Below, piece after piece: positions 30,382 through 60,700 of a DNA stretch of 64,000 nt (position 1 is the first letter of the stretch; each line of letters begins with the position of its first letter). The stretch lies in the NCBI GenBank assembly GCA_043228905.1, contig JBHGNT010000016.1:3472001-3536000 (forward strand), written 5' to 3'. Source of the stretch: Azolla caroliniana (taxonomy: Eukaryota > Plantae > Polypodiophyta). The notes under the pieces were generated by a model. The model was not told the origin of the DNA. It searched no databases and saw nothing but the letters and a program-made list of their open reading frames with translations. The position numbers and the translations under genes are program-made.

Positions 30382-30584
30382 TGTTCGTTCTTATGGTTCC
30401 TCCAATTTAGTTAATACAGACTTGAAGAACCTAATCTCTGTCTGTGAATCTCTCTCACTCTCTCTCTCTCTCTACAATCACACACACACAGACATACATA
30501 TATACAGCTAGCACTGTTTGGTACCAGAACACATGTTTATGCCATGCATCTATGGCTCTCTGTGTCTGTGTCTGAATCCAGGCC

Positions 30585-39198: not shown

Positions 39199-39888
39199 AC
39201 GGTACTTCTGTCAGTCCCACGAGGACTTATATAAATAGTGCTACTGAGTGCCGTACACCGCGCTCGGCCACAACCGAGAAATAGGATCAAATCACAGAAA
39301 ACAGGAAATACGAAATGCTCCAAGACTACAGAGAGAAGAGTACACAGGATATTTTACGTGGAAAACCCTAAATGGGAAAAACCACGGGAGTCCTCAAACT
39401 CCAACTCACACTATACACAGAGATGTACAATGGTGAAGCTTCAAGGCAACAACCTTGAGTTCACTGTCTTCGCCACAGGCGGCGGCAATACACAGAGGCG
39501 TCGACCTCTTCCTTTCTCTCTCTCTCTCTCTCGGCTGCTCTCACTTCGCTCTCTCACCAGAACATAGAATGAGCAACAACATAAAACTGTTTGCCCTAAG
39601 TCATATTTATACACATATGACTTTCGGGCTATTTACAAATATAGCCTCAAGGGCCCTTGGCAAACATATTCACAAATATGTCCCCGCATCCGGATCTCTC
39701 TCCGGGTACATTCCTCATCCGGCTCCGTAGCCGGGTCTTCGTCATCCGGCTCCGTAGCCGGGTACTCTTCATCCGGCTTCATGCCGGGTACTCTTCATCC
39801 TCCGGTTCCGTAACCGCAACCGGGCTTGCTGTCATTCATCTCCGGACATCCCATCCGGAGGGACCGTAAATCCCAACAAACTCCCCCT

Positions 39889-42800
39889 TCACTTCGGCAT
39901 GGGATGTCTCTCCAATCCGATCCTCTTCCGGCATGCTTCCAGCTTGTCGGGTGTAAGTACCTTAGTCAGCATATCCGACCCGTTCTCGTCCGTGTGGATC
40001 TTCGTCAGCACGAACTCCTTGTCTTCTATCCTTTCCCGGATCCAGTGATATCTTCGTTGGATGTGCTTCGTCCGGGAGTGATAGGCCGCGTTCTTCGCAA
40101 GGTGGATGGCACTCTGACTGTCGCAGTAGAGTCGGTACTCCTCCTGCAGGATTCCGAGCTCTCTAATGAAGTCCTTCATCCATATTATTTCCTTGCCGGC
40201 TTCAGCAGCCGCCATGTACTCCGCCTCCGTGGTTGACAGCGCAACCGTCTTCTGCAGCCTCGACTGCCACGAAACAGCTCCACCTGCATACGTCATCACA
40301 TACCCTGATGTGGACCGGCTGGTATCTGCATCAGCCGACATATCCGAATCGGTAAAGCCGTCGAATTCGGGCTTACCGGAGCCGAATCGGAGGCACACGT
40401 TTGCCGTGCCCTTCAGGTATCGGAGTATCCACTTGACCGCGTTCCAGTGCTCTTTGCCGGGATTGCTCATGTACCGACTCACCACTCCAACTGCATATGC
40501 TATGTCCGGTCTTGTACACACCATTGCGTACATCAAGCTTCCGACGGCAGAGGCATATGGTACTTTCATCATGTCCTCCTTCTCAGCCTTTGTCTTGGGG
40601 CTTTGCTTGCTGGACAACTTGCAGTTTGCCGGGAGGGTCGATCCAACCGGTCTTGCTTCCGACATGTTGAACCGTTTAAGCACCTTTGTCACGTACTTCT
40701 CCTGTGACAGCCACAACTGCTTCTTGCTCCGGTCCCGGATGATGTGCATCCCTAGTATTTGCCTCGCCGGACCCAGGTCCTTCATTGAGAAGGTTCGGTG
40801 AAGTGCTTTCTTCAGCCTCCGTATCTTGACCCGGTCCCGTCCGACGATCAACATGTCGTCCACGTACAGGAGGAGTATTAGGAAGTCTCCTCCTTCGAAC
40901 TTCTTCACAAACACGCAATGATCGGACTGCGTTTTGTGGTACCCTTCGTCGGTCATGAAAGAGTCGAACTTCCGGTACCATTGTCGGGGAGCCTGCTTCA
41001 GTCCGTAAAGGCTCTTCTTCAACCGGCACACCAGGTGCTCCTTCCCTTTCTTCTCGAATCCTTCTGGTTGCTGCATGTAGATCTCTTCTTCGAGGTCACC
41101 GTGAAGGAATGCCGTCTTCACGTCCATCTGTTCTACCTCGAGGTCCATGCTTGCCGCTATGCTCAGCACCGTCCGGATGGAGGTCATCTTCACTACCGGG
41201 GCAAATATCTCGTCGAAGTCGACGCCCTTCTTCTGCTGGAACCCCTTCACCACGATCCTGGCTTTGTATCTCGGGGGGTTTCCGGCATCTCCCGGTTTCA
41301 GCTTGAACACCCACTTGTTACGGAGTGCCCGTTTTCCTTTCGGCAGCTCCACCAGTTCATATGTGTGGTTCTCATGCAGGGAATCCATCTCGTCCTGCAT
41401 GGCACTCAACCACCTGCGGCTCTGGGTGTCATGCTTTGCTTCTTCAAAGCTCTCCGGCTCCCCCTCGTCGGTTAGCAGCACGTGCTCTGGTTCCGGAAAT
41501 CTCCGGGGGGCCCTTCTCTCTCTTAGAGGATATCTCCGTTCCGGAGCTTCGGTAACCGGTTCTTCCGATTCTTCTTCATCCGAATCCATTTCGGAATCGG
41601 GGCCGGTCCCGGTATCATTTTCATCTTCTTCGGCCGGTTCTGTTTCTTCACCGTCTTCGGCCGGATCCTCGAGTGCTAACCGGTCCCTTGCCGGTCGGGA
41701 CTGCTCCTCGTAGAGTTGATCCTCACCGGTCGACTTGGAGCTCTTCATCTTCTTCTCCGACTCCAAGTCGGCGAGTGTCTTGTCCTCCATGAAGATGATG
41801 TCTCGACTCCTGAATATCTTCTTGTCAACCGGGTCCCATACTCGGTAGCCGAACTCGTCGTCGCCGTAACCGAGGAATATGCATGGCCGGGTCTTTGGAT
41901 CTAACTTTCCTCTCCGGTCCTTTGCCACATGCACGTATGCGAGACACCCGAACACCTTCAGATGCCGGTAAGACACTTCCTTACCGGTCCACACTTTCTG
42001 CGGCGTGTCTCCGTCCAAAGGTACTGAGGGTGATCTATTTATCACATACGTCGCCGTCGACATTGCCTCAGCCCAAAATCCCTTGGGTAATTTCGCATGC
42101 GCCAGCATACTCCGGACCCTCTCCATTATGGTCCGGTTCATCCTCTCGGCCAGCCCGTTCAGTTCCGGCGTCTTCGGCACTGTAAACTCGAGCCGGATTC
42201 CCTTCGAGCGACAGTACTCCTGGAACTGCCCCCGGTATTCCCCTCCGTTATCCGCTCGTATCGCTTTCAGCTTCTTGCCGGATTCCCTTTCCACTCTCGC
42301 GTGGAGTTCTTTGAAGACGGACAACACTTGGTCCTTTGTCTTCATCGGTGCCGTCCACAGTCTTCGGCTATGATCATCTATGAAAGTTACGAAGTACTGG
42401 GCTCCGCCATGTGACTTCGTTTCTACCTGACACACATCAGTGTGCACCAGCTCCAATGGTGCGCTACGTCTCGTCGGTGGCCTTGAGTGGAAGGAGGCTC
42501 GGTTCTGCTTACCGGCCAGGCAATCGGTGCACTTCTCCAGGTGCACATGCTTCACTGGAATGAGGTTGTCTTCTGCAAGCCTCTTCATCCCCTTCTCGCT
42601 CATGTGGCACAGTCTCTTGTGCCACAGCTCACCGGCAGTGTCAGCTGCCACGTTCAGCTCCTCCGGACATAGCCGGGAATTCATCAGGTACAGTGTGTTG
42701 ACCTTCCGGGCCCGAGCCACTATCAGGCTCCCTTTGCTGAACTTCATGACACCGTTCCGTATGCTACCCGTGTAGCCTTCATCGTCTAGCCTCCCAGCCG

Positions 42801-43962
42801 AAATCAGGTTCAATCGAACCTCCGGAACGTGTCGGACATCCTTCAGCAGCATCTTGCATCCGGTTGATGTCATCAACCACACGTCTCCTATGCCGGCAAT
42901 CCGGCATGTACCTTCATTTCCCATCCGGACAAAACCGTGCTCGCCGGCTGTGTAGGATGAGAAGTATTTCTTCTCCGGGGTCAGGTGGAACGACGCTCCG
43001 GAATCGACCACCCAGGTCATCTCTACACCGGCAAGGTTCAGCTCCCTCTCTTCGGTAATGAGCATTATCTCTTCTTCACTTGCCGCGAGTGCTGTCGTTC
43101 CTTTCCGGTCCTGCCCTCGCCGATCCGGACCTCTCCGGTCCGTGGCTCCCCGGTATGCACCGTTTCTCTCCGGTGACTTCTTCGAATCGGTGTCGTCGGC
43201 TCCGTTGTCCTTTCGGTAATGCCGACAATTCTTCCGGAAGTGCCCCGGCTTTCCACAGTGGAAGCATGTTGGCCTTCCTCTTGACTGCGACCGGGTCCCC
43301 GACTTCTCCCGTCTTTGCGGACTCCGGTTCCATTGTCTTCCCTGATCCGATTCGGTAAGCAGCGCCTTCGAGTCGGTGGCCGGTTCTTTATCTCTCCGAC
43401 GCGCTTCTTCGTTCAAAATACTTGTCTTTACCGTTTGTAGAGACAAGTTATCTTCGGTGCAGGAGGTGCTGAGAGTCACCACCAAGTTCTCCCAGCTGTC
43501 CGGCAATGTACACATCAGGATGATGGCTTGCATTGCATCCTCCAACGGGAACTTGATCGCCGCAAGCTGGTTCACGAATCCCATGAACGTGCTTACGTGT
43601 TCCACCATACTCTCGCCGTCCCGGTACTTGAGATTCACAATCTTCCTCATCAGGGAGGTCCGGTTCAACGCATTCTTCCTCTCGTAGAGGCCCGACAGCT
43701 TCTTCCACATCTCATATGCGTTGGTGTCATTCGCCACATGTTGTAGGACGCTTACATCGACATATTGTCGGATCGTCGCTACGGCTTTCCGGTTCAGGAG
43801 CTTCCACTCCGACTCAAGTACTCCCTTCGGTATTTCCGACCTGTCAATCGGTTCGTACAGGTCCCGAACAATCAGAAGATCCTCCATCTTGATCTTCCAG
43901 TCGGCGTAGTTCTGCGCATTCAGCACCATCATTCCCGGCTGCCCGCTGCTGCCGCCTTCCAT
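39889..43962 (-). CDS. Copia Gag-Pol polyprotein (GAG, CCHC knuckle, protease, integrase, RT, RNase H), 1357 aa, uninterrupted
   Basis: First ATG after the PBS (MEGGSSG). Motifs CFHCGKPGHFRKNC, WVVDSGAS, LWHKRLCH, FIDDHSR..DNGGEY..ERMNRT, MDVKTAFLHG, LYVDDM, FTDSD..STTEAEY and RTKHI. Confidence 0.97.
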   Translation of the reverse strand: MEGGSSGQPGMMVLNAQNYADWKIKMEDLLIVRDLYEPIDRSEIPKGVLESEWKLLNRKAVATIRQYVDVSVLQHVANDTNAYEMWKKLSGLYERKNALNRTSLMRKIVNLKYRDGESMVEHVSTFMGFVNQLAAIKFPLEDAMQAIILMCTLPDSWENLVVTLSTSCTEDNLSLQTVKTSILNEEARRRDKEPATDSKALLTESDQGRQWNRSPQRREKSGTRSQSRGRPTCFHCGKPGHFRKNCRHYRKDNGADDTDSKKSPERNGAYRGATDRRGPDRRGQDRKGTTALAASEEEIMLITEERELNLAGVEMTWVVDSGASFHLTPEKKYFSSYTAGEHGFVRMGNEGTCRIAGIGDVWLMTSTGCKMLLKDVRHVPEVRLNLISAGRLDDEGYTGSIRNGVMKFSKGSLIVARARKVNTLYLMNSRLCPEELNVAADTAGELWHKRLCHMSEKGMKRLAEDNLIPVKHVHLEKCTDCLAGKQNRASFHSRPPTRRSAPLELVHTDVCQVETKSHGGAQYFVTFIDDHSRRLWTAPMKTKDQVLSVFKELHARVERESGKKLKAIRADNGGEYRGQFQEYCRSKGIRLEFTVPKTPELNGLAERMNRTIMERVRSMLAHAKLPKGFWAEAMSTATYVINRSPSVPLDGDTPQKVWTGKEVSYRHLKVFGCLAYVHVAKDRRGKLDPKTRPCIFLGYGDDEFGYRVWDPVDKKIFRSRDIIFMEDKTLADLESEKKMKSSKSTGEDQLYEEQSRPARDRLALEDPAEDGEETEPAEEDENDTGTGPDSEMDSDEEESEEPVTEAPERRYPLRERRAPRRFPEPEHVLLTDEGEPESFEEAKHDTQSRRWLSAMQDEMDSLHENHTYELVELPKGKRALRNKWVFKLKPGDAGNPPRYKARIVVKGFQQKKGVDFDEIFAPVVKMTSIRTVLSIAASMDLEVEQMDVKTAFLHGDLEEEIYMQQPEGFEKKGKEHLVCRLKKSLYGLKQAPRQWYRKFDSFMTDEGYHKTQSDHCVFVKKFEGGDFLILLLYVDDMLIVGRDRVKIRRLKKALHRTFSMKDLGPARQILGMHIIRDRSKKQLWLSQEKYVTKVLKRFNMSEARPVGSTLPANCKLSSKQSPKTKAEKEDMMKVPYASAVGSLMYAMVCTRPDIAYAVGVVSRYMSNPGKEHWNAVKWILRYLKGTANVCLRFGSGKPEFDGFTDSDMSADADTSRSTSGYVMTYAGGAVSWQSRLQKTVALSTTEAEYMAAAEAGKEIIWMKDFIRELGILQEEYRLYCDSQSAIHLAKNAAYHSRTKHIQRRYHWIRERIEDKEFVLTKIHTDENGSDMLTKVLTPDKLEACRKRIGLERHPMPK

Positions 43963-44252
43963 TTTCTGTGTTACCGTGCTCTGATACCACTTTGCCGTAC
44001 ACCGCGCTCGGCCACAACCGAGAAATAGGATCAAATCACAGAAAACAGGAAATACGAAATGCTCCAAGACTACAGAGAGAAGAGTACACAGGATATTTTA
44101 CGTGGAAAACCCTAAATGGGAAAAACCACGGGAGTCCTCAAACTCCAACTCACACTATACACAGAGATGTACAATGGTGAAGCTTCAAGGCAACAACCTT
44201 GAGTTCACTGTCTTCGCCACAGGCGGCGGCAATACACAGAGGCGTCGACCTC

Positions 44253-44297
<45 letters not shown>

Positions 44298-44577
44298 TTT
44301 GCTCTGTTCCTTCTCTCTCTCTCTCTCTCTGTCGCTAACGGCTCTCCCTGTCGCTAACGGCTCTCTGTCGCTGTCGTCGCCGTCGCCGTCACCGTCGCCG
44401 TCGTCTGCAGCCGTCGTCTGCAGCCGCAGCAACCGTCGCCGTCTGCTCTCTCTCTCTATCGCTCGCTTCCTCGTCTCTCTCTGTCGCCTGCTCTCTCTAG
44501 TGTCGTCGCCGTCGCCGTCGCCGTCGCTGCCGTTATCTGCGGCCGTCGCCGTCTGCCACCGTGCAGTCGTCCACCGT

Positions 44578-44725
44578 CTGCTACCGCCGGCTGCCGTCTG
44601 CTGCCGCCGTCTGCCGTCTGCTGCCGCCGTCTGCCGTCTGCTGCCGCCGTCTGCCGTCTGCTGCCGCCGTCTGCCGTCTGCTGCCGCCGTCTGCCGTCTG
44701 CTGCCGCCGTCTGCCGTCGGCTGCC
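44578..44725 (+). repeat. GC-rich 20-bp tandem array (CTGCCGCCGTCTGCCGTCTG)n in the LINE 5' UTR
   Basis: About 7 copies directly visible. Confidence 0.9.
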
Positions 44726-44949
44726 GTCGTCTACCGTCGTTTTGACGACTGCCACCGTCACGGGGTGTTTTCTTCTCCGTTCTTGATGTGGTGAAGTACC
44801 TTTTTCTCGACGAGTTTCGTGGGTGGGCTCTTTTGGTGTGCTCGTCCCGTGCTACAAAATGCCGATGTGATTGCGACACACACAAAAACTCGGCTAAGTC
44901 TCGAACCCATTTATTTATTTTACCTTCTTTTTTTCTTATTGACACCACA

Positions 44950-45762
44950 ATGACGTCTAGACGGACTAAGGAACTTAAGGATATACAAGACGAGGCTATA
45001 AGTAAGGAGGACTTTTTAGATATGTTTAATCGTTTAACAAAAATAGAGATGGATATGAAAAAATGGGCGAAAGACACCGAAACCTACAAGAAAAAAGATA
45101 GAGAGGAAAAAGACGCCCTCAAGGCCGAAATCGAACAACTTAAAATAGAAAACATCGACCTTAAAAAACAACTTAAGGACATCGAGGTATCTCGAGAAGA
45201 CGGTGAAATATCCTCTATAGAGGATATAAAGGACGAAATTAAAAAAGTTAAAGAGGAAGTTAATAATAACATAGAGTTAGCTAAAACGGGTTGGGTAGAT
45301 GTGGTTAAGAGAAACATTAAAAAAGAAATAAAAGATGAAAATATTGTTAACACCACCCTTGAAGAAGAGAAAATGCGTCAGGCCCGACGCTTAAATGTAC
45401 GTGTCACTGGGCTCAAGGAAGGTGCATCCCCAAATGAGGACGCACAAACACTTGGGAAAATGTTAGGGTACACAGAGGCCCTACCTATCACCAAAGCATG
45501 GAGGGCCGGGCGTGACACAACTAGGAAGAGAGCCTTAGTCCTTCAATTTAAAGACTTAGACTCTAGAATCACTTTCTTTAAGAAGAGACCAATCCTTCGA
45601 GGAATGGATGGGGACCCCATCTATCTCGATGAAGACCTCACTAAGATGCAAATTGAGCATCGCAAGAGTTGTATGCCACGAGTTATGCAAGCTCGTAAAG
45701 AAGGCCATCGCGCCTTTTATCGAGACGGGCGAGTGATCATAAATGATCGCACTACTAACTGA
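44950..45762 (+). CDS. LINE ORF1 protein (coiled coil plus RRM-like region), 270 aa
   Basis: ATG at 44950 (MTSRRTKEL), a heptad-rich K/E/L segment, then RRLNVRVTGLKE and IYLDEDLT, typical of transposase_22/L2-like ORF1 C-terminal halves. No CCHC knuckle. Confidence 0.85.
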   Translation: MTSRRTKELKDIQDEAISKEDFLDMFNRLTKIEMDMKKWAKDTETYKKKDREEKDALKAEIEQLKIENIDLKKQLKDIEVSREDGEISSIEDIKDEIKKVKEEVNNNIELAKTGWVDVVKRNIKKEIKDENIVNTTLEEEKMRQARRLNVRVTGLKEGASPNEDAQTLGKMLGYTEALPITKAWRAGRDTTRKRALVLQFKDLDSRITFFKKRPILRGMDGDPIYLDEDLTKMQIEHRKSCMPRVMQARKEGHRAFYRDGRVIINDRTTN

Positions 45763-45768
45763 CGGCGT

Positions 45769-48700
45769 GTGGCCCATGTGACAGAAAATGCACTTAGGAT
45801 GACCCTATGGAATTGTAATGGCGCACTTTGGGCACACCCCGGCCGCCTAGAGGAGATACTAAAGGTATCTGATATACTCTTCTTGGTAGAAACACATCAG
45901 AGCCCAAATAGAGGACTCCCACGGGTCGAAGGATTCCGTTGGGAGTCCGCTTTTAGACAAACCTCACGTCGACACACTACTAGGGGATCTGGAGGTGTCG
46001 CGATACTATTTCGTAGAGAGCTACATAATAGGATAGAAATAATGAAGATAGACCCAGAAGCTCGTTTTATGTGGGTGAAAGTCTCCACAAGCAAAGACCA
46101 TGCAGTATTTTTCGCCATTTGTTACTTTCCCCCAAAAGGATCCCGTTATAATATTAGTGGCTTGACGAGATTAGTCGATGAAGGAATGACACATGGGCCT
46201 TCTCCATACGAACCCCTATCGGATGACATAATCCGATATTCTTCCCAAGGAGAAGTATTTCTTGTAGGAGACTTCAATGCGAGAACCCAATCCCGACAAT
46301 GCACAGTATTTCAGATGAATAGAAACCTAGAAATGGTAAATGTTGATCCTTTAGACATAGGCACCACACGTAGATCAAAGGATCAAGGTGCGGACGCCAC
46401 GAGCTTTGGCCATCACCTGCTCGAACTTGGCAGTCGGCACCAGATGGTCATATATAATGGTTTAGCTAAGTGGCCGGGCTCGGAAGAGCTCACATGTTTC
46501 CCACATGGAGGAGGGGAAAGCACAGTTGACTATCTAATAGGGCGCCCGACAGCTACCGACTTGATTAACTCCTTCCGAGTGGCCCCATGCCCTATTGGCG
46601 CAGACCATAGCTTCTTATACTTCGAGCTAAAATGTGATATCTCTAAGGTCACCAAGTCTAGTCAACCATGCCATCACACCACAATACATTTCACACATGA
46701 GCTCTCTGACATATACTCTCAACATGTTCATGCCCATCTCCCCTCCATTGATCCCTCTCTACCGTTAGAAAGCCTTAGTACAAAACTCACACACATCCTT
46801 CACTCCGCAGCAGCTAGCAGTTTCCCATATACAAAACACTCAAATCAAGGTAGATCAGGATCAATGCCACAAAATAAATGGTATGACGAGGATTGTAGGG
46901 ACCTACATAGACAACTTACAGTATCGCAACTCAATGGTAGTATTACCTCCACACAAGCTCGCAAAGAAATGCGTAAGATGACACGTCGTAAGAGACGAGC
47001 GTGGGAGGCATCCCAATACTGGGAACTCTACCATATGCTCATGAGTAGCGATTGCGCCACGGCATGGAAGAGACTACGGGAGCCAAGACCACAAACACCC
47101 ATCGAAGATCCCGAAACTTGGCACACATATACAGAGAGACTTTACCAAATCCCAAACCAACCACCTTTTCCAATGCCTTCCACACCCCGGCCTACCACGG
47201 GGACACTTTTCACGACCTCTAGGGTCATGAAGGTCATAAAGAAATTACAACATAGGAAGTCCATGGACCACACAGGATTGCGAGCAGAACACATTATATA
47301 TGCGAGAGAGTGCCTAGCTCCCTTGCTAACTCTAATCTTCAATCGTGCCCTTGCGGAGGGTTTTCCACCACAATGGACTATGAATACAGTGACCCCCATA
47401 CATAAAGGGGGGGACCCCATGGACCCAAATACATATAGGACCATTATGATAGGCCATACCTTTGCTAAGTTATATGGTGCAGTAATGGAAGCAGAGCTTA
47501 GCGACTACATGGAGACCCTAAACCTTCGTGCACCTGAACAAGCTGGCTTTAGACGAGCCTTCTCCACTGTTGATCACATCTTCACACTTAGATGCCTAAT
47601 TGACCAAACTAGGGCTCGCAAGAAGAGATTATATTGTTGTTTTGTGGACTTCCGCAAAGCCTTTGACACAGTCCCTAGAGATCGGTTGTCTGATAGACTT
47701 AAAAGCTTGAGGATACCAGATGATATGGTATGGGCCATCTACGCACTATATGAACAAGTGTCCGGGTGTGTCCGATGCCCAGGTGGCCTATCCAATCGTT
47801 TCACTAGCACTATTGGTGTAAAACAAGGTTGCCCCCTATCACCGACGCTTTTTGGGATTTACATTGATGAGATCACAGATTTTATTGCTCGTGAGGGAGG
47901 CACCGGAGTGGTCCTTGGGGATACGCAGGTTCGTATCTTGCTCTATGCGGATGACATAGTTTTGCTCTCTGAATCCGAACACGACCTACAGAGGCACCTC
48001 AATGCCTTAGATGACTTTTGTGTACAACGAGGATTGGTAGTGAATCTAGGGAAAACGAAAGTCCTTATCTTCCACACATCGGCCCAAGTTAGAGCTAAGT
48101 GTCACCTAACTATCTCCCATAGCCCAGTCGAGGTGGTTGGATCATACGTATATCTCGGAGTCACTTTTAGTGCCCGCTCAGGTAAATTTTCGATGACACA
48201 GGCAGCGAAGGATAGACTCACGAGAGGACATGCATCCCTCTCACTCCTAGAGAGACAATGCCACCAAGCACACTTTCAAGAGCCACGGACTAAAGGGTGG
48301 CTCTTTGACTCATTAGTGACCCCCTCCCTCATGTATGCATCTGCGGTTTGGGCTCCAGGATTACCATCCGTCATGTGGACGCAATTAGAGAGACCATTGG
48401 TGATGATGCTATCACGCCAACTCCGAAGCAAATCGACTGTACCACATGACATTATTAGGGCCGAGTTCACGTTACCGCCAATGCTAGTAGAGGCACTTTT
48501 TCAACTTGTAGTCTTTATTGATAGGATACATAGCCAACCACATGATAGAATATCTCATCAAGCCTTTAAGGCCTCTCGATCATTGTATGAGTCCGGCCAT
48601 ACTAGCTCATGGTATGGCATGATGGTGACTTGGCTTCTTGCGAATGGTCTAGACATTAATAACCTACCTCCCCTTAGGTACAACCACACGAGTGATAACA

Positions 48701-49500
48701 CCTTAATCTCTCATGAGAACCGCAATAAAGTAATACGCCAAGAAATATGGCAAATTTACACTCGGTGTAAATGGATCACCCCACTAGAGCCACTCCCATC
48801 TAAAATGTCGTACTATAAGAAACACTTCATGCACTTCTCTGAGTTAGGTTTTATCACACGGCCAAAATATCTAGATGTATTCTTACCACATGCACTAAGG
48901 GTTGCCATAGGACAACTTAGAATATCATCTCACCAACTTGAGATTGAAAATGGCCGTACTAGTGGAGTCCCTAGGGAGGAAAGGATATGTAGGTTATGTC
49001 ACATAGAGATAGAGGATGAGTACCACTTTACTTGCAAGTGTCCAACCTATGCCGAGATAAGGGCACAATACCAAGACATACTTGGTCCGTCTCCCACCCT
49101 CCCCGAACTATTAGATACTCTAGATATAAAGAAATTAGGCAAATACATTCTAGCGCTAAAACAACACAGAGAGAATAAATTACAAAATGTTGACAATAAT
49201 GCTGCTAATGATCACGAACATGTAACAAATGCAGTTTTTCAGGAACCTGAGGAGACAACGAATGCCGACACACTTGCACCACTCGGCCTTTCCATTGATG
49301 AGGCAGAAAACCAGAGAAGAACCAGACGTCCTCGGGTGCCGGGTTTCAAAACAACTCAACGTGATGTGGACGCAATATTGAAAATAAGGGAACGTGAGCT
49401 ACACCGCCTAGAAGCCATGGCTAGGGCACTCTCTACATTGGAACCCACATCAAGACCCTTTGACCCCCCACTTCTTTTCGAGAGGCTTGGGTGGAAATAA
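45769..49500 (+). CDS. LINE ORF2: apurinic endonuclease + reverse transcriptase + C-terminal CCHC, ~1240 aa, uninterrupted
   Basis: WNCNG, LVETH, GGVAIL, VGDFNA, STVDY and ADH (APE); EQAGFR, FVDFRKAFD, GVKQGCPLSPTLF, LYADD and YLGV (RT); CRLC....EDEYHFTCKC. The first ATG is at 45799, but the frame is open from the ORF1 stop. Confidence 0.95.
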   Translation: MAHVTENALRMTLWNCNGALWAHPGRLEEILKVSDILFLVETHQSPNRGLPRVEGFRWESAFRQTSRRHTTRGSGGVAILFRRELHNRIEIMKIDPEARFMWVKVSTSKDHAVFFAICYFPPKGSRYNISGLTRLVDEGMTHGPSPYEPLSDDIIRYSSQGEVFLVGDFNARTQSRQCTVFQMNRNLEMVNVDPLDIGTTRRSKDQGADATSFGHHLLELGSRHQMVIYNGLAKWPGSEELTCFPHGGGESTVDYLIGRPTATDLINSFRVAPCPIGADHSFLYFELKCDISKVTKSSQPCHHTTIHFTHELSDIYSQHVHAHLPSIDPSLPLESLSTKLTHILHSAAASSFPYTKHSNQGRSGSMPQNKWYDEDCRDLHRQLTVSQLNGSITSTQARKEMRKMTRRKRRAWEASQYWELYHMLMSSDCATAWKRLREPRPQTPIEDPETWHTYTERLYQIPNQPPFPMPSTPRPTTGTLFTTSRVMKVIKKLQHRKSMDHTGLRAEHIIYARECLAPLLTLIFNRALAEGFPPQWTMNTVTPIHKGGDPMDPNTYRTIMIGHTFAKLYGAVMEAELSDYMETLNLRAPEQAGFRRAFSTVDHIFTLRCLIDQTRARKKRLYCCFVDFRKAFDTVPRDRLSDRLKSLRIPDDMVWAIYALYEQVSGCVRCPGGLSNRFTSTIGVKQGCPLSPTLFGIYIDEITDFIAREGGTGVVLGDTQVRILLYADDIVLLSESEHDLQRHLNALDDFCVQRGLVVNLGKTKVLIFHTSAQVRAKCHLTISHSPVEVVGSYVYLGVTFSARSGKFSMTQAAKDRLTRGHASLSLLERQCHQAHFQEPRTKGWLFDSLVTPSLMYASAVWAPGLPSVMWTQLERPLVMMLSRQLRSKSTVPHDIIRAEFTLPPMLVEALFQLVVFIDRIHSQPHDRISHQAFKASRSLYESGHTSSWYGMMVTWLLANGLDINNLPPLRYNHTSDNTLISHENRNKVIRQEIWQIYTRCKWITPLEPLPSKMSYYKKHFMHFSELGFITRPKYLDVFLPHALRVAIGQLRISSHQLEIENGRTSGVPREERICRLCHIEIEDEYHFTCKCPTYAEIRAQYQDILGPSPTLPELLDTLDIKKLGKYILALKQHRENKLQNVDNNAANDHEHVTNAVFQEPEETTNADTLAPLGLSIDEAENQRRTRRPRVPGFKTTQRDVDAILKIRERELHRLEAMARALSTLEPTSRPFDPPLLFERLGWK

Positions 49501-50209
49501 AATTAGGCTTAGTGTATAGTCACTTTCGAGTATACTACATATTGTACACTACTAGAACTCTTTTAGTTTAAGTTCTATTTTTTTTACTTAATTTTATTTT
49601 TAGTTATGATGACTGGATAAATACTCTATTGTTGTAAACCAATTGTCTCATGGGCCAAATTTGGCCTTAGAAGACGTTAATACACCTTTCTTTCTTTCTT
49701 TCTTTCTCGGCTGCTCTCACTTCGCTCTCTCGCCAGAACATAGAATGAGCAACAACATAAAACTGTTTGCCCTAAGTCATATTTATACACATATGACTTT
49801 CGGGCTATTTACAAATATAGCCTCAAGGGCCCTTGGCAAACATATTCACAAATATGTCCCCGCATCCGGATCTCTCTCCGGGTACATTCCTCATCCGGCT
49901 CCGTAGCCGGGTCTTCGTCATCCGGCTCCGTAGCCGGGGTCTTCCTCATCCGGCTCCGTAGCCGGGTCTTCGTCATCCGGCTCCGTAGCCGGGTACTCTT
50001 CATCCGGCTTCATGCCGGGTACTCTTCATCCTCCGGTTCCGTAACCGCAACCGGGCTTGCTGTCATTCATCTCCGGACATCCCATCCGGAGGGACCGTAA
50101 ATCCCAACACTGAGCACAGTTGTAAGTGAGAGAGTGTTTTTATTGTTTTGAATATAGCTTTTACGCTCACCGGCTCCCATTGGGTGTTGTGGCTCGTTTG
50201 TCTCGACCT

Positions 50210-52540: not shown

Positions 52541-55500
52541 TCACCGTCGTGTCGTTTCTTGAACGCTCTTCCCCGCTACCGGTATCGCCATTCTCGTACC
52601 GTCGAGCTCCGCGAGATGGTACGTGCCATTGTCGTTGGCGCATGTTACTACGTAAGGCCCGAAACACCTCCTTGCGAACTTCCGCGTGGCCTTGTGCTGA
52701 TTGTCGAGGCTGCTGTCGTAGACTAGCACCCAGTCGCCTTCCTCGATCTTCCTTGGCCAGAGCCGGTGTGTTCGGTCGAACCGGGCTTTGTTCCTTATCC
52801 TCGCTACCTGAAGTTTCTCCGTGGCTCGCTCTACATCCTCCGGCCTCCGCTCGAGCTGTCGAATCCAAGCCGCCAATAGTTCCTCCCGGCTCATCTCATC
52901 CCTCCAGTCCATCGTGGCTCACGAGGAGATCGTTCGCTTTGTTGGCATGATCGGCTTCTGTTCGAACATAAGCTCGGCCGGCATGAACCCTGTTACCGAA
53001 CTGTGTGTAGTCCGGTCCGCCCACAAGGCATAAGGTAGTAGCCGTGGCCAATTCCCGACTTGGCCTCCGCACGCTCGTACTAGCGCTTTGACAATTGGCC
53101 CGTGTCCGCGCTCCACCTTCCCGTTCGCCTCCGGATTGTACATTGTGGTGAGCGAAAGTTTGACTCCTCGCCGGTCGAACAACTCTTCGGCCTCTTCTGC
53201 GTTCAACTCACCACGGTCAGCCACGATCTTCCCTACGCACCCATATCGGCATACCACGTCCTCAATCAAAAACCGGCATACGGCTGCAGTCGTCTTGTTC
53301 TGTAGGGCTCGGCCTTCAACCTGGTTTGTTAGATCCTCCCGAGCCAGCACCAGATACCGCATCAGTCCGACCCCCATTGGCATCGTCACCAAATCCACCA
53401 TCCATTTGAAGTGGATGGTCGGAGGGTAGGTCGGGTGAAGCTCGTCCTGGTGTCGGATCATGGAGTGGACCTGGCAGCTTTCGCAAGTCGTCACGAACCG
53501 ATGCACGTCCCGGTATAGTCCCAACCACCAGTACTTCCCCTTTAGCTTTGCGAACGTGGCCCACGTTCCACGGTGTCCAGCCCAAGGACTGTCGTGGTAC
53601 GCCGCCATCAAATCTTCCTGTTCCTCCTTCTTTGCCACCACTTGGAGCGGGATGTCGTTCCTCTTCTTCGGGTGCTTCCATATGTACCCGTCCCGGATAA
53701 AGAATCGGTAGGCTTTCTTCCGAATCCGGTTGGCCTCGTCCGTTGTCCATGCCGCGTCCGGTGTCATCGTTTTCAGGAACCCATCGATCTGCAGCCACTC
53801 CCTGTCGTACTTGCTCTCGTCAAAATCATTAAGCGTTGGAGTGCATTCCCTGCCGGTTGTTAAGTGAGCCGCCTTGAAAAAGTCCACGCCGACTTCCTCG
53901 TCCTCCGAAACCATGCCGCCCTCGTTTTCGAACCTCGCCCTTGAAAGCATGTCGGCCATGGCATTGTCTTTCCCATAAATGTGTCATATTTCCGGATTCA
54001 GGGACTTGATGTACGCTATCCACCTGAGCATTGCCAGGTCCGGTGTCGCGCATTCGGAAACCATGCCAAGAATTGGTAGGCAGTCCGTCTCGATAATTAC
54101 CTCTGTCCCGATTAGGTAGTCTTTATCGGCCTTTACCGCCGAAACGATACCCCAGAGCTCGCGTTTAACCTGGGCGTATCCTCGTTGTCGCTCGCTGAGG
54201 ACCTTTGCGCCGAACCGGATCGGGAAACGCCTGTCGTCCTCGTCCTCTTGGTTGACGACCCATCCGATCCCGGTCGGACTCGTGTCTATCGTTACGTAAA
54301 TTGGAGTGTCCTTTCCGTAGACAGCCTTTCGGAGCGCCGAAGCTACGGCAAGTGCTTCCTTCATCTTTCGGACAGACTCCGTATGCTCATCTCTCCACTC
54401 GAATTTTCGCCCCTTTTTCAGCAACTCGTATAACGGCTCCGCGACGTGAGCGTAATGCGGGATCCATATGTGGTAGAATGCGCACGCTCCCAAGAACCTC
54501 CGAACCTCCGTGACCGAGCTACAGTCGTCCTTCATTGCGGAGATGGCTTCTACCTTAGCCGGAGACGGTTTCCGGCCGTACGACCCGCATAGGTGTCCGA
54601 CGACCATGATCTCTGATTGCCCGAAGGCCGATTTTCCCCTAGAGAAGGTGAGCCTCGCGCCCTCCAACCTCTGCAGCACCTTCTCGCAGTCATCGATGTG
54701 TGTCGCCACGAATTTCCGGCACCCGTCCGGTCCGATCGTCTCGTCCCTTTCCTCCACCGGGCATCCCTTGATCGGGACGTCGTCTAGAAACGGCATGGTG
54801 ATGTCCGGGATACAATCCCTCAGCACCTTGTTCATTGCGTTTACCATGTGAGCCACCGAGTTCGTCCCTCCTTGTGGTAGGGTACACATCCGTACTAGGC
54901 CGAGAGGAGTTCGCATCGTCATGATGTCTCTGCTCTTTATGGCTAGCTGGAACTGATCGTACCCCGAGTAGAGATCACCGACCGAGTAAATCGACCTTCC
55001 GGCGAAGGCATCCGCGAACTCGTCTATTGTCGGTCCGATTCCTACGTTTCAAATGGTCACCTTGTTGACCGGCTGCAGGTTTTGAATAAAGCGCAGCGTG
55101 CCGTCCTTCGGCATGGTAAACCACCGATTCGAGTATGGGGCACTCGACGGTTCGAGGATTCCCATCTCAACCTTCTGCTTTAACATCTCCATCAGCTTCG
55201 GGATGTGAGGTCTGGGTATTGGAATTGGTTTGAGACTCCACGGCACATGCAGTACCGTGAATATCACCATCGGTTCCACGACTGTCGGGTCTACGCACCT
55301 GATCTCCTCCGGCGAGAATGCGAAAGCCTTCCCGTGCCTTCCGAGCATCCCCTGAAAACGGTCCTCTTCCACCAACAGTAGGAAGCCGCCCCCACCGATT
55401 TTGAGCTTGCGCAATGTTATGTCGGTGAACGTGTGTCCTATGCTGGCCGGATTTCGTAAACTCGGGTCCGAAGCAACCCCCTTTATTCGCAACTCGCTGC

Positions 55501-55720
55501 CCTTCGGCAAGGGAGCCGCGACCGGCCTCACCTTCCGGTCCACAGTCTTGTACCTCGTGTCCACTCGTGCCGTTCGATCCGACTCGAGCCCTCTACTGAA
55601 GTCCGCGATGACTTCGTACATCCTTTCCGAACATACCGGAATCGTCCGGCCCTCTTTAAGGACTCCTCCGACTACCTCTCGCAGCTCCCCCAAGGTATCG
55701 ACGAAAGAGACCGCCTCCAC
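52541..55720 (-). pseudogene. Fragmented gypsy pol (RT, RNase H, integrase with GPY/F motif)
   Basis: ORFs 55720-55049, 54922-53984, 53959-52919 and 52912-52541, with PSSAPYSNRWF, FLDD, DTSPTGIG, HDSPWAGH..CESC, VADRGE, YNPEANGKVERGH and FGPY. Confidence 0.88.
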
Positions 55721-56325
55721 GGCTCCGTTGATTACCTCTCCAAGGCCGAGGATACCACATGCCCGAAGTTGCTCCTCCGCCTTTTTTTTCTTCTTGCCAA
55801 CAACATCGACTATCGTACACCCTCCGTTGTCGGAGAACCAAAATTTCCTACTTATAGTACAGGTCTATTTCGGTATCATACACTGGTGGGGTTTTCCCGG
55901 AGTGTCCGGACTATCGCGGCCCCACGCCTTGATAGCCCTCTCTAAAAATCCTCTCGGCTTTTGCCCCCGAGGGTCTCGCGGTTCCGCTCATGGTTCGGTC
56001 TCACCGTCAGGAACTGGACCGAGTGACGCCCATCCTGTCATAACTAGACTCGAACCCATAACCTTTTGTTACACGGGTCGAGACTTTACCATTAGGTTAT
56101 GAATTGTAATTTGAAGGATATTATTTTCATTTAGGTTTTATTGGGAAATTGATGTATATTCCAGATTTCTCTGGAACATTCTAGAAACTTCAGGAGTATT
56201 CTTGAAGACACTATAAAAGGAGGCGCAAGGCATTAGTTCGAACCAAATCGGTTCAACGCCAGTCTTAAGCCTTCTAACTACTGTTGTATATCTTCTGTCA
56301 TATAATACATATATCTTTCGCATCA

Positions 56326-56363
<38 letters not shown>

Positions 56364-56586
56364 ACTCATTCCTTCTCTCAAAGTTCGACACCTCTCATAG
56401 TACTAATCCTTCTCTGTCTTAGTACTATTCCCCAACAATAGTACTAATCCTTCTTTTAGTACTAATTCCTTCTCTGCCTTAATAGAGTTCCTGACAGTTT
56501 GAACCGATTTTTTGACTACTAGTCTCCCTCTTCCTTCTGTCTCCCTCCTTTCCTACTAGTCTCTTATTTCCCTTTTCCTTCATCCC

Positions 56587-57756
56587 ATGGCCACCGTTAG
56601 CGCTGAAGAGTATCAATCCGTTTTCTCGGAATTTCAATGCTTGAAAGAGAAGTTTCATGCTTTGGAACAAGAAAATCAACGCTTGTTGGGGGATCTTCAG
56701 CAAATTTCCTTAGAAAAGCAGCAAACGCAACAACAGCATGGGGAACTTGCGTTACGCGTGCAACAACTCGAAGCAACCATCGTAGCAATGCAACAACAAG
56801 GGCACGGAGCACAAGGGATTCATAAAGAACCCAAGATTGGCCTTCCCACGAAGTTCGATGGAACGCGATCGCAGTTTAGAGGGTTTCTTAACCAGGTACG
56901 GTTAGTTATTCAAATGCATCCGTCCCGATATCCCACCGATGCATCACGAGTGGGTTTAGTAGGCACGTTGTTAAATGGCTCAGCATTAGCATGGTTCGCT
57001 CCGCTACTAGAAAAGGAATCTCCAGTACTAAATAATTTTGAAGAATTCATAAGTGAGTTTAAAGCATGTTTTGGAGATACTGACAGCATAAGGACTGCAA
57101 TCAACAAAATCCGGCGATTACGCCAAGGTGACCGTCCAGCCTCCGCATATGCTGCAGATTTCCGCCTACTCGCCGCCGATATCCCCTGGGATGATCAAGC
57201 ATTGATGGAGCAGTTCCGCTATGGTCTACGCAACGATGTCAAGGATTTACTCTTGACTTTCCCTGAAGAGCCAAAATCATTAACAGAAGCAATCAGTCGA
57301 GCGGTCAGATGTGACAACCGCCTCTTCGAGCGACGTTCGGAACGACAATTTCAGATGCCGAGGGCAAGATCCGAGCCTACCTATGCCTCAGTGGTAGCGA
57401 AACCTTTTCAAAGGGAGTCACATAATGCGCCTCCAGTAAGTACTCCAACTCCAATGGAAATTGACACTACACGTCGTCGTGGGCCGCTATCGGAGGAGGA
57501 AAAGCAACGACGCCGAACAAACCGATTATGCCTTTATTGCGGTGGACCAGGGCATATCGCGATAAACTGTCCCCATAGACCAAGAAGGCAGGTAAACCAA
57601 GTCATTGTTAGTTCTGACTATACTAAACCCGAGTCTATTTCAGTAGGAATCTCTGATAATCCTCATAGTCATAATAGTCCTAATAGTACTAATAGTCCGA
57701 ATCTCGCAAACAAATTTGATGTCCTTAGCCAATTAGAAGAAGAGTTAAACGACTAA
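56587..57756 (+). CDS. Chromovirus Gag (PEG10/sushi-like capsid plus CCHC knuckle), 389 aa
   Basis: PTKFDGTRSQFRGF, LLNGSALAWF, LRQGDRPASAYAADF, FRYGL, PTPMEID and CLYCGGPGHIAINC. Confidence 0.95.
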   Translation: MATVSAEEYQSVFSEFQCLKEKFHALEQENQRLLGDLQQISLEKQQTQQQHGELALRVQQLEATIVAMQQQGHGAQGIHKEPKIGLPTKFDGTRSQFRGFLNQVRLVIQMHPSRYPTDASRVGLVGTLLNGSALAWFAPLLEKESPVLNNFEEFISEFKACFGDTDSIRTAINKIRRLRQGDRPASAYAADFRLLAADIPWDDQALMEQFRYGLRNDVKDLLLTFPEEPKSLTEAISRAVRCDNRLFERRSERQFQMPRARSEPTYASVVAKPFQRESHNAPPVSTPTPMEIDTTRRRGPLSEEEKQRRRTNRLCLYCGGPGHIAINCPHRPRRQVNQVIVSSDYTKPESISVGISDNPHSHNSPNSTNSPNLANKFDVLSQLEEELND

Positions 57757-60700
57757 GTCCAGCCAAAATAGGAGCCGTTTGGTTGGACAGCCCTAGATCT
57801 GTGCAGCCCATTAGTGGTTCCATTCCCTCTAAGCAAGTTAGTGATGTGTTCGTAGCCCAAGTAGCAGTTAGTACTAAAAGTACCCCTCCAGTACATACCT
57901 TAGCCCTTCTAGATTCCGGAGCTAATTCTTGCTTCATGGATAGGAATTTTGCCCGAGCTCATCAGATATCTCTCAGAAAGCTCCCATGTCCAGCCTCAGT
58001 AGTAGTCATTGATGGTCGTCCCATTGCTTCTGGTAATATCATAGAAGAGTCGGAACCCGTTAATATTGTCCTAGATAACTTAACATGTGTAGTATCATTT
58101 AATATTATTAGTATTCCAGAACATCCCATAGTTTTAGGATTACCATGGTTCGAGTTACATGACCCAGACATAGATTGGAGGACAAGGGAAATCCGGTTGC
58201 GACAAACCCAAGGATCTATCCAGAAGGTTGCAACCATTTCGCTACGTCAGTTGCGTGAGGAAGGGCGCAAGGAGGAAATGTTTCTCTTTGCAATATCAGT
58301 ACAACCCTCCAGCACCACCAAAGAGGAGTCCACCGTTCAACTTCCCGAGAAGTATCGTCAGTATGCTGATGTGTTCGATAAAGAACAAGCCAACACACTT
58401 CCTCATCATCGGCCGTACGACTGCGCCATCGACTTACAACCGGGAAAAGAGCCGCCATGGGGGCCGATCTACAATTTGTCACCAACCGAGCTAGAAGTCC
58501 TTCGAGCCTATATAGAGGAGAATTTGGAGAACGGTTTCATTCGGCATTCGAAATCTCCAGCCGGCGCACCCATTTTCTTCGTCAAGAAAAAAGATGGCTC
58601 GCTTCGACTCGTTGTAGATTACCGTGGCTTGAATAAGGTCACAGTAAGAAATAGGTATGCTCTTCCCCTTATCTCAAGTCTTTTAGAACGGATCAACGGT
58701 GCCAGGTTCTTCACGAAGATCGACTTACGAGGAGCCTATAACCTCGTACGGATCCGACCAGGAGATGAATGGAAGACCGCGTTTCGCACCAGATATGGGC
58801 ACTTCGAGTATACGGTCATGCCGTTCGGACTCACTAATGCGCCGGCAGTCTTCCAACACATGGCGAATGATATATTTCGAGATCTCTTGGATGATTTTTT
58901 GATCATCTATTTGGATGATCTACTGGTTTATTCAAAGACCCAAGAAGAACATGATTCTCATGTACTATTAGTACTAAAACGACTTCGAGAACATGGTCTG
59001 TATGCAAAGTTAGAGAAATGTAGTTTCGGGTGCAACCAAGTGGAGTTTCTCGGCTATGTCATCTCCTCAGAAGGCATATCTATGGACCCAGCCAAGGTCA
59101 AAACGGTGATAGAATGGCACACTCCGCGTTCGGTGCGGGATGTGCAATGCTTCCTAGGCTTTGCAAATTTCTACCGGAAGTTCATACAAAATTACTCAAA
59201 AATTGTGCTGCCTCTCACACAGCTCACCAGGAAGGGACAATCATTCATTTGGTCTAAAGAGACGGACATGGCTTTCGAGAGTCTTAAGAAGGCGTTTACA
59301 TCAGCTCCAATTTTAGGTCATGTGGATCCGGAAAAACCATTCATTATCGAAGCTGATGCATCGGATTTCGCATTGGGGAGCATTCTGTCACAACAGGGTA
59401 ACGACGAGAAGCTACATCCTGTGGCTTTCCACTCCCGTAAGTTTGACGCCGCCGAAATCAACTACGAAATTCATGATAAAGAGCTATTAGCAATAGTTGA
59501 TTCTTTTATGCAATGGAGGCATTTCCTGGAGGGATCTCCTCATCAGGTCACTGTATTCAGTGACCACAAGAACCTTGCCTACTTTCAAGATGCTCGTGTA
59601 CTGAATCGACGTCAAGCTCGGTGGGCCCACTTCCTCACACGCTTCGACTTCAAAATTACATATCGTCCGGGGAAGCACCAAGGGAAGGCAGATGCATTAT
59701 CACGGCGTTCGTATCTAACACCACGTCCCGGTGAGCCAGCTTTCGATAACCAGAAGCAAGTAATCTTGGGTCCAGCACGACTGCAAGCAGCACAGGTCTT
59801 TGACATGCCCGTGGATTCCGACATTACCAATACTATACGTGAGGACTTGAAGACTGACGCTTTCGCCCAAGCTATACTAGCACAAATTGACCCCTCTCGA
59901 GCGTCATGTTCACAATCACAATCACCAGGTACGGATTATCGGCAATTCAAATACTGTGATGGATTACTCTTCTTTAAAGAACTTTTGTATGTTCCTAATG
60001 GTTCTTGCCGCCTTCGAGTAGTACAAAACTGCCATGACACATATACAGCAGGACATTTTGGTAGTACTAAAACATTAGATTTAGTACAACGATCATTCTG
60101 GTGGCCCCGTATGCGACAATTTGTCGAAGATTTTGTTCGGACTTGCGATACATGCTGCAGAGCGAAAATGCCAAGACATCATCCATATGGTTTATTAGAA
60201 CCATTACCAATTCCAAGCAAGCCATGGCAATCCATTGCTCTTGACTTCATTACAGATCTTCCAGTCTCTAAGGGATTCAGTGCGATTCTCACAGTGGTGG
60301 ATCGATATACGAAGATGGCTCATTTCTTACCATGTACTAAAGAAATATCTAGTGAAGACACCGCCGAAATTGTCATGCGGGAAGTATGTCGGCATCATGG
60401 ACTCCCTGATAATATCATCAGCGATCGTGGACCCCAGTTTGTGTCAAAATTCTGGAAGCACCTTTTTAAAATGCTGAAGGTCACTTGTAACCTCTCCTCC
60501 GGCTACCACCCACAAACCGACGGTCAAGCCGAACGAACAAATCAAACACTGGAGCAGTATCTGCGGTGCTTTCTCAACTATCATCAGAATGACTGGGCAG
60601 ATATTCTTCAGTTCGCCGAATTTGCCTATAATAACGCTATCCACGCATCGACTAAAGTCACGCCATTCTACGCTTATACGGGATATCATCCCCGGTGGTG

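What the first reader, a model, noticed from the sequence alone, without database searches (positions are those of the whole stretch)
45751..45845. LINE ORF1 and ORF2 are in the same frame, separated only by UGA-CGG plus a possible hairpin: candidate programmed stop-codon readthrough
Seen: ...ACT ACT AAC TGA(45760-62) CGG CGT GTG GCC CAT... continues in frame into the endonuclease with no other stop. The first ATG (45799) falls inside endonuclease motif I (LRMTLWNCNG), so it is a poor start. GTGTGGCCCA (45767-45776) can pair with TGGGCACAC (45829-45837) with one bulge. Established: UGA-CGG and UGA-CUA are leaky readthrough contexts in tobraviruses and alphaviruses, often aided by a 3' stem-loop, whereas L1 and SART1 ORF2s use reinitiation or coupling. 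Inference: the element makes ORF1p plus a minor ~1500-aa ORF1-ORF2 fusion, a retrovirus-like stoichiometry control that I do not know of in plant LINEs.
Basis: partly seen in the sequence, partly recalled or inferred. Interest (0 to 1): 0.85.

Follow-up and report, generated by a model that had tools for sequence, protein, structure and literature searches.

The report
Fern LINE with virus-style stop readthrough
An intact jumping gene (a LINE) in what is likely a fern has its two genes in one reading frame, split by one stop codon that all 22 related junctions examined keep, and a short conserved sequence just after that stop is complementary to sites 0.4 and 3.9 kb downstream, so its copying enzyme is likely made, as in some plant RNA viruses, by ribosomes occasionally reading through the stop.

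Summary
ORF1 (44950-45762) and ORF2 (45763-49500) share one frame. All 22 readable junctions (window plus 21 of 30 loci; ORF1 identity down to 34%) keep a stop at the same place: TGA 18, TAG 3, TAA 1, followed by CGG in 17. No linker holds a second stop, and linker length changes by whole codons. Three junctions have no in-frame ATG before the endonuclease, and ATG45799 lies inside its first strand. The local hairpin is chance-level (z -0.56). Instead, 45771-45782, 8 nt after the stop, is conserved as nucleotides and is predicted to pair with 46190-46199 (stronger than all controls in 6 of 9 loci) and with the 3' UTR at 49644-49657 (13 of 14). This matches viral type II readthrough cassettes. 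Readthrough about 0.72; restart near the stop remains the rival; nothing was tested at the bench. A ciliate LINE group is a published, sequence-only precedent. The scan noted similar layouts before, in other genomes and on another piece of this genome.

The parts
44295..49706 (+). Full-length, intact LINE inserted into the (CT)n run of a copia LTR; ends approximate because they lie in the microsatellite
   Evidence: 43993-44276 is 100% identical to the other LTR (39249-39532) and the LTR match resumes at 49685; both ORFs open
44295..44949 (+). 5' leader with (CT)n and GCCGTC-type repeats; three upstream ATGs out of frame with ORF1
44950..45762 (+). ORF1, 270 aa, predicted coiled coil + RRM + C-terminal domain of the human L1 ORF1p type
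   Evidence: No Pfam hit; AlphaFold model pLDDT 78.7; best Foldseek matches are L1 ORF1p chains, E 1e-6
45760..45765 (+). Single in-frame stop with leaky-type context, TGA-CGG
   Evidence: Stop at this place in 22 of 22 junctions, CGG in 17 of 22; type II hexamer in PMC13517186 and PMC3159437
45763..45792 (+). Ten-codon linker between the stop and the first endonuclease strand; predicted disordered at its start
   Evidence: No in-frame stop in 19 of 19 linkers read through to WNCNG; W at codon 16, 21 (L019) or 14 (L021); pLDDT under 50 for residues 1-7
45770..45783 (+). Post-stop element conserved at nucleotide level; helix starts 8 nt after the stop (45771)
   Evidence: Third bases fixed in 3 of codons +3..+6 while amino acids change, against 5 of 64 flanking codons (Fisher p 0.004, chosen after the fact); only two low-depth variant rows inside it
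45776..45781 (+). Out-of-frame ATG followed at once by TGA, inside the conserved element
   Evidence: ATG at this place in 18 of 19 linkers read, absent in L013
45799..45801 (+). First in-frame ATG of ORF2, third residue of endonuclease strand 1; a poor main start
   Evidence: Strand 1 is residues 11-17 of the model; ATG here in 16 of 20 junctions, ATT/ATC/GCG/TTT in the other 4
45829..45837 (+).
   Evidence: 45832 G>A is the majority in runs X4 and X5
45763..49500 (+). ORF2 frame, 1245 codons: APE endonuclease, reverse transcriptase, C-terminal Cys/His cluster
   Evidence: Pfam Exo_endo_phos E 2.9e-11, RVT_1 E 1.5e-32; model matches L1 endonuclease, Z 23.0, rmsd 2.8, 223 aligned
46190..46199 (+). 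Predicted mid-range partner (10 bp) of the post-stop element, about 430 nt downstream, in a variable loop of the endonuclease
   Evidence: Pair probability about 1.0 in 5 of 7 folds; strongest of 26 helices shared by 5 lineages over 1858 columns; 0 of 311 control 12-mers as strong in the window; one compensatory and two wobble changes
49644..49657 (+). Predicted long-range partner (13 of 14 Watson-Crick) in the 3' UTR, 3.9 kb downstream
   Evidence: Best of 1032 windows; the only 14-mer pair with 13 or more complementary bases in the element; kept in L002
49645..49675 (+). Predicted 3'-terminal hairpin that overlaps the long-range partner and would exclude it
   Evidence: -13.8 kcal/mol; not significant against shuffles of 49600-49710 (z -0.64); an orphan 3' end in L020 keeps the hairpin through changes on both arms
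49685..49706 (+). (CTTT)n tail

Best explanation
This intact LINE has ORF1 and ORF2 in one frame across a single conserved stop, and it likely makes its endonuclease/reverse transcriptase as a minor 1516-residue ORF1-ORF2 fusion by programmed readthrough of that stop, likely stimulated by a conserved element 8 nt downstream that is predicted to pair with distant parts of the same RNA. Shown: frame, stop, context, their conservation, the nucleotide-level conservation of the element and its complementarity to 46190-46199 and 49644-49657. Inferred: most ribosomes end at UGA and give ORF1p; a few insert an amino acid when UGA-CGG and a helix at the mRNA entry channel slow termination; the fusion would carry ORF2p into the ORF1p trimer on its own RNA. 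More speculative: pairing to the 3' UTR would confine ORF2 synthesis to full-length RNA and would alternate with the 3' hairpin that may be needed for reverse transcription, as in tombusviruses. Which partner matters is open.
For: Stop at the same place in 22 of 22 junctions, in frame with the endonuclease in 19 of 20 that have one (L016 has a 1-nt loss further on), no second stop in 19 of 19 linkers, length changes of +5 and -2 codons. ORF1 ends exactly 14 residues from the Y of YRDG in 74 of 81 homologs that carry the motif, of 214 proteins held. CGG follows the stop in 17 of 22, including L021 (38% ORF1 identity); the TAG lineages have TAG-GGA (2) and TAG-CGC (1). UGA-CGG and UAG-GGV are named readthrough hexamers (PMC13517186), and Virgaviridae keep xxA-stop-CGx-xxx-xxG with a stem 8 nt after the stop (PMC3159437); here codon +3 ends in G in 20 of 21 and the helix starts 8 nt after the stop. 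No in-frame ATG before motif I in L013, L016, L021. The codon two before ATG45799 is Leu/Ile/Phe with five different codons in 9 of 9 lineages listed and begins strand 1, so it is likely translated. Mid-range helix stronger than every control 12-mer in 6 of 9 loci; L013 has a changed element and two matching partners at other places. The elements of all 13 junctions tested pair with the window's 3' UTR site at 11 to 14 of 14 positions counting G-U.
Against: No ribosome profiling, peptide or reporter data. ATG45799 is kept in 16 of 20 junctions, and Met stands at that place in 29 of 41 protein hits with motif I (21 as first residue, so biased by gene callers). Codon +3 is ATG in 6 and GTG in 7 of 21 junctions, a possible restart site. 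Human L1 ORF2 is translated without its AUG (PMC4091050), so a missing ATG does not prove readthrough. No mid-range partner in L021 or L009, a weakened one in L022. Covariation is thin: one double change, 48 of 500 shuffles as high. Linked 5' and 3' sites exist only for the window and L002 (96% alike in ORF2); no such site in the 770 nt held behind ORF2 of L007. 3 of 4 RNA reads at 45778 carry a change that would break one pair. L024 has TGA-AGG, L011 TGA-TGG, L009 TAA-CGG. In Tca2 a similar-looking junction gave no readthrough in a yeast reporter (PMC2194720 abstract). The 22 junctions are not independent: 14 fall in one tight clade.
Confidence: 0.72

Rival explanations
1. Termination-reinitiation close to the stop, at codon +3 (AUG/GUG) or without AUG as in human L1, helped by the same paired element; ORF2p would be a separate protein.
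For: Codon +3 is ATG in 6 and GTG in 7 of 21 junctions and ATG is the majority in organism C. The whole-codon indels lie downstream of codon +3, so they fit this reading too. L1 ORF2 needs no AUG; SART1 coupling needs a downstream structure (PMC5972666 passage).
Against: Codon +3 is GCG, TCG or ACA in 8 of 21, and ATG and GTG alternate between near-identical high-coverage families. It does not explain the fixed CGG, the TAG-GGA context, the fixed frame between stop and linker or the lack of further stops. The codon lies partly inside the predicted helix.
Confidence: 0.17
2. Reinitiation at ATG45799, giving an ORF2p that starts MTLWNCNG; the linker would be a non-coding spacer.
For: ATG kept in 16 of 20 junctions; Met at this place in 29 of 41 protein hits with motif I, among them gene models from Adiantum and Ceratopteris.
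Against: Absent in L013, L016, L019, L021 and read as ATC in a depth-332 contig of run X1; it would cut two residues off strand 1, whose first residue is conserved as a hydrophobic one; an out-of-frame ATG precedes it in 18 of 19 linkers.
Confidence: 0.06
3. The long-range complementarity serves RNA folding, packaging, 3'-end recognition or escape from nonsense-mediated decay, and ORF2 comes from a spliced, edited or internally started RNA.
For: The 3' partner overlaps the terminal hairpin; Tca2 has a promoter in its gag-pol junction (abstract).
Against: No joint listed and no recurring in-frame joint across the stop; the 3 RNA reads that reach the stop align from 45760 on, which implies the T (very few reads); it leaves the leaky contexts unexplained.
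Confidence: 0.04
4. A private nonsense mutation in a single-ORF element.
For: Two decayed database proteins read a sense codon here (P0110, P0146), as do P0256, P0292 and P0293.
Against: 22 of 22 DNA junctions, 9 of them high-coverage contigs, have the stop; no variant at 45760-65 among the 40 best-supported of 222 rows; no intact natural ORF1-ORF2 fusion among 2 long hits or the best 150 profile hits.
Confidence: 0.01

Closest known systems
Type II readthrough of tobra-, peclu-, furo- and pomovirus replicases and alphavirus nsP3/4 (PMC3159437: abstract and passages seen; PMC13517186: passages)
   Same: UGA-CGG, G at the end of codon +3, 8-nt spacer, then a 10-13 bp stem whose arms lie far apart; UAA and CGC variants occur there too.
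   Different: A nuclear LINE, not an RNA virus; the loop is about 410 nt against 100-150 nt; codon -1 ends in A only in the divergent lineages; untested.
Tombusvirus PRTE-DRTE long-range readthrough signal (PMC3234231: abstract and section list only)
   Same: Pairing over 3.5-3.9 kb between the region 3' of the stop and a 3'-terminal element that has a mutually exclusive local fold.
   Different: There the proximal site is part of a large stem-loop and the pairing is proven; here the proximal site itself starts 8 nt after the stop, has a second predicted partner, and the pairing is only predicted.
Paramecium tetraurelia non-LTR retrotransposons, Group 3 (PMC5405496: passages seen; supplements not read)
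   Same: [quoted passage not shown]
   Different: A ciliate-specific clade; the passages name no context, structure or experiment.
Human LINE-1 (PMC4091050, PMC11485995, PMC5972666, PMC5009743: passages)
   Same: ORF1p fold, endonuclease fold, low ORF2 output from one two-ORF RNA.
   Different: L1 has a dispensable 63-nt spacer and uses termination-reinitiation; here one stop and a constrained coding linker.
Candida Tca2 LTR retrotransposon (PMC2194720: abstract) and gammaretrovirus gag-pol
   Same: Structural and enzyme genes in frame across one stop; the UAG-GGA of L013 and L016 equals the MoMLV hexamer.
   Different: LTR elements; MoMLV uses a compact pseudoknot; the Tca2 junction alone did not direct readthrough.

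Membership tests
Two-ORF APE-type non-LTR retrotransposon (LINE) | APE endonuclease and reverse transcriptase in one ORF | tested here: met
Two-ORF APE-type non-LTR retrotransposon (LINE) | Upstream RNA-binding ORF1, no LTRs of its own, simple-repeat 3' tail, insertion into a foreign sequence | tested here: met
   L1 ORF1p fold; inserted in a copia LTR, (CTTT)n tail
RTE-X (RTEX) clade | Place in a reverse-transcriptase tree with reference clades | not testable with these tools
   No reference sequences were fetched; the likeness of the C-terminal Cys/His cluster to RTEX is recalled, from no call
Type II programmed readthrough (Beier-Grimm) | UGA-CGG or UGA-CUA, in frame, conserved | tested here: met
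   TGA-CGG in 16 of 22 junctions
Type II programmed readthrough (Beier-Grimm) | Conserved stem beginning 8-12 nt after the stop | tested here: inconclusive
   Predicted and conserved in 6 of 9 loci; covariation weak; none found in L021, L009
Type II programmed readthrough (Beier-Grimm) | Measured fusion product | not testable with these tools
   No ribosome profiling or proteomics available
Tombusvirus-like long-range readthrough switch | Pairing of the post-stop region with the 3' end, exclusive with a local 3' fold | tested here: inconclusive
   13 of 14 bp, unique in the element, overlaps the hairpin; linked data for the window and L002 only
Tombusvirus-like long-range readthrough switch | Disruption lowers, and compensatory change restores, readthrough | not testable with these tools
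   Needs a reporter
SART1-type translational coupling | Overlapping stop-start (UAAUG) | tested here: not met
   No ATG overlaps the stop in any of the 22 junctions
L1-type termination-reinitiation | Dispensable non-coding spacer between the ORFs | tested here: not met
   Linker is frame-locked, stop-free and holds a conserved element
L1-type termination-reinitiation | Separate ORF2p made without need of an AUG | not testable with these tools
   Needs a reporter or N-terminal peptides

The most novel reading that the evidence does not exclude
Fern LINEs use a virus-type readthrough switch: a 12-nt element after the ORF1 stop pairs with the element's own 3' end 3.9 kb away, so that only full-length RNA makes the ORF1-ORF2 fusion, and the same 3' bases then refold into a hairpin for reverse transcription; this would be a sequence-encoded basis for cis preference and for the translation-to-copying switch in a LINE.
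Probability: 0.35. Interest if true: 0.88.

Novelty: new variant of a known kind. Interest (0 to 1): 0.72.

Why it matters
How LINEs make ORF2p from a two-ORF RNA, at low level and in cis, is still open; the tested cases are reinitiation (L1) and stop-start coupling (SART1). A LINE lineage that has kept the full anatomy of a viral readthrough cassette across ORF1 identities down to 38% gives a third route with named, mutable parts, testable in a plant extract. If the 3' pairing is real, it ties enzyme synthesis to RNA integrity. It also means that gene models of these elements start ORF2 too late.

Tried and rejected
No whole genome is held for the window, and the window has no second copy. 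No RNA holder was listed; run X21 gave 5 reads, too few to judge expression. One search lists differences only for 45766-45819, so it does not test TGA-CGG directly; one search shows 40 of 222 rows. Scans of viral contigs and prokaryote genomes found no relative; the 28 pattern hits encode nothing related. Nine of 30 loci were dropped from the junction counts: L014, L018, L020, L023, L026, L029 lack the ORF1 end, L012 and L028 are decayed across the junction, and L030 (26% identity, decayed) shows three in-frame stops before motif I and one after it, so it could not be read either way. Long hits P0001, P0002, P0167 and P0209 are gene models, not intact fusions. Sequence searches of solved structures found nothing. 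Rfam gave one chance-level hit. The consensus fold of the short junction alignment was about zero energy. A helix that includes the stop itself (with about 45841-46) appears in some folds but not across lineages. Literature: nine answered searches showed no plant LINE with readthrough; most subscription papers and Repbase are not covered, and Alisch 2006 was not held, so I rely on reviews for it. No supplements were read; those of PMC5405496 may give the Paramecium stop contexts.
Full report
What is there. The finding sits in a complete LINE of about 5.4 kb (44295-49706) that has inserted into the (CT)n run of one LTR of a copia element; the two LTRs are 100% identical over the 284 bases left of the insertion, so the insertion is recent. 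ORF1 (44950-45762, 270 aa) is predicted to fold like human L1 ORF1p. The ORF2 frame (45763-49500, 1245 codons) holds an APE endonuclease and a reverse transcriptase. Both are in one frame with one TGA between them; the fusion would be 1516 residues. The closest named homologs are from the ferns Adiantum nelumboides and Ceratopteris richardii, so the host is likely a fern. The family is highly repeated in four contig runs.

The stop is a family trait. An alignment of the window's ORF1 with 48 of the 69 homologs fetched 30 loci; 21 have a readable ORF1 end, giving 22 junctions with the window. All 22 have a stop at the same place: TGA 18, TAG 3, TAA 1. The next codon is CGG in 17, GGA in 2, CGC, TGG and AGG in one each. 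Twenty go on into an endonuclease; 19 do so in frame with no stop in the linker, and L016 loses one base after codon 14. The first Trp of motif I is codon 16 in 17 of the 19, codon 21 in L019 and codon 14 in L021. Among 214 proteins then held, 81 carry the YRDG-type motif and 74 of them end exactly 14 residues from its first letter. In the read lays no variant at 45760-65 is among the 40 best-supported of 222 rows, while the neighbouring 45759 is; loose ends show divergent copies that rejoin the window exactly at the TGA. These junctions are not independent: 14 form one tight clade, and the deep splits are few.

The first ATG is a poor start. In the endonuclease model (pLDDT 89.9) strand 1 is residues 11-17, and Met45799 is residue 13; short ExoIII-type enzymes align from model residue 11 to their residue 1. 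Residue 11 is Leu, Ile or Phe, with five different codons, in the 9 lineages listed. L013, L016 and L021 have no in-frame ATG before motif I; L019 has one only at codon +3. Against this, the ATG is kept in 16 of 20 junctions and Met stands there in 29 of 41 protein hits with motif I, of 120 listed, 21 as first residue. Codon +3 is ATG in 6, GTG in 7, GCG in 6, TCG and ACA in one each of 21.

The proposed hairpin fails. It is no stronger than shuffles, one pair is broken in 11 of 14 sequences, and no measure stands clear of the controls.

A different signal is present. Over 8 representative lineages, codons +3, +5 and +6 change amino acid but keep their third base; only 5 of 64 flanking codons keep it (p 0.004, picked after seeing the data). 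In the read lay the stretch 45770-45783 has two low-depth variant rows, while 45784-45791 varies at up to about a third of depth. The element has two predicted partners. The first, 46190-46199, gives a 10-bp helix that starts 8 nt after the stop. It forms with probability near 1 in 5 of 7 folds (L013 0.51 to another site, L021 none), is the strongest of 26 helices shared by five lineages of 68-93% identity, and beats every control 12-mer in 6 of 9 loci. L010 shows one double change and L007 two wobble changes, which alone is weak (48 of 500 shuffles). L013 has changed the element and has two matching 10-11 bp partners at +294 and +372. L021 and L009 have none in the DNA held, and L022 has a damaged one. 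The second partner, 49644-49657 in the 3' UTR, pairs at 13 of 14 positions. It is the best of 1032 windows and the only such pair in the element; about 1.7 would be expected somewhere by chance, but 3e-5 for this element with the 3' UTR. It is kept in L002, and an unlinked 3' end in L020 carries a variant that fits the L019 and L021 elements at 14 and 12 of 14 positions. It overlaps a predicted terminal hairpin. When both partners are offered, the nearer one wins in the computed ensemble (0.83). No such site was found behind ORF2 of L007. I wrote this lead down before seeing earlier notes of the scan that report the same kind of pairing; those notes are unchecked and are not counted as support.

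How it most likely works. Most ribosomes would stop at UGA and release ORF1p; a minority would insert a residue and run on to make the fusion. The anatomy matches what Firth et al. describe for plant virus replicases: stop-CGx-xxx-xxG, an 8-nt spacer and a stem with distant arms (PMC3159437, abstract and passages). The TAG-GGA of L013 and L016 is the type III hexamer (PMC13517186, passages). The 3' pairing recalls tombusviruses (PMC3234231, abstract). I put readthrough at 0.72, restart near the stop at 0.17 (L1 needs no AUG: PMC4091050 and PMC11485995, passages), restart at ATG45799 at 0.06, other routes at 0.05. All mechanism steps are inferred from sequence; none was measured.

What is known. 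Tested LINE routes are reinitiation and stop-start coupling (PMC5972666, PMC5009743, passages). Read-through was suggested, from consensus sequences, for Paramecium Group 3 elements (PMC5405496, passages; I reached this paper through the scan's notes). Searches showed no plant LINE case and no long-range signal in a LINE; the library is incomplete. PMC4559204 and PMC10294476 (passages) added nothing on readthrough. The clade was not determined; a likeness to RTEX is recalled only. Verdict: a real, conserved feature, a new variant of a known kind of recoding, interest 0.72.

Noticed in passing
window 39249-50109: Copia element on the minus strand with one open 1402-codon frame (39892-44097) and near-identical LTRs; the LINE sits in the LTR next to its primer site.
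   Followed up: partly
window 56560-61337: Chromodomain-bearing gypsy element with gag and pol overlapping in the -1 frame; the overlap holds G TTA AAC in the right phase for a -1 slip (57744-57750; the slippery pattern is recalled).
   Followed up: no
window 44260-44345, 49685-49710; L002 3' end; L020 163-250: All three 3' ends seen run into (CT)n or (CTTT)n, and in L020 a 3' end, a (CT)n run and another copy's 5' part follow each other: the family may target CT microsatellites.
   Followed up: partly
window 46502-46508: A third, 7-bp complement of the post-stop element (His-Gly codons of the endonuclease) is the second strongest shared helix; it may only reflect protein conservation.
   Followed up: no
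protein P0229: In this transcript-derived hit the normally out-of-frame ATG of the element appears in frame with the endonuclease; the frame ends after 219 residues, so it is probably a decayed copy, but a lineage that restarts there is not excluded.
   Followed up: no
proteins P0167, P0209: Distant gene models join an ORF1-like part to an endonuclease that lacks motif I, as if a predicted intron skipped the stop; the layout may reach beyond ferns.
   Followed up: no
window 52922-55864 and 62452-63747 (minus strand): Broken gypsy-type frames, the first split by in-frame stops.
   Followed up: no
window 29485-30390 and 10590-12359 (minus strand): First exon region of a copper amine oxidase gene, and a 590-codon frame with no Pfam match.
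   Followed up: no
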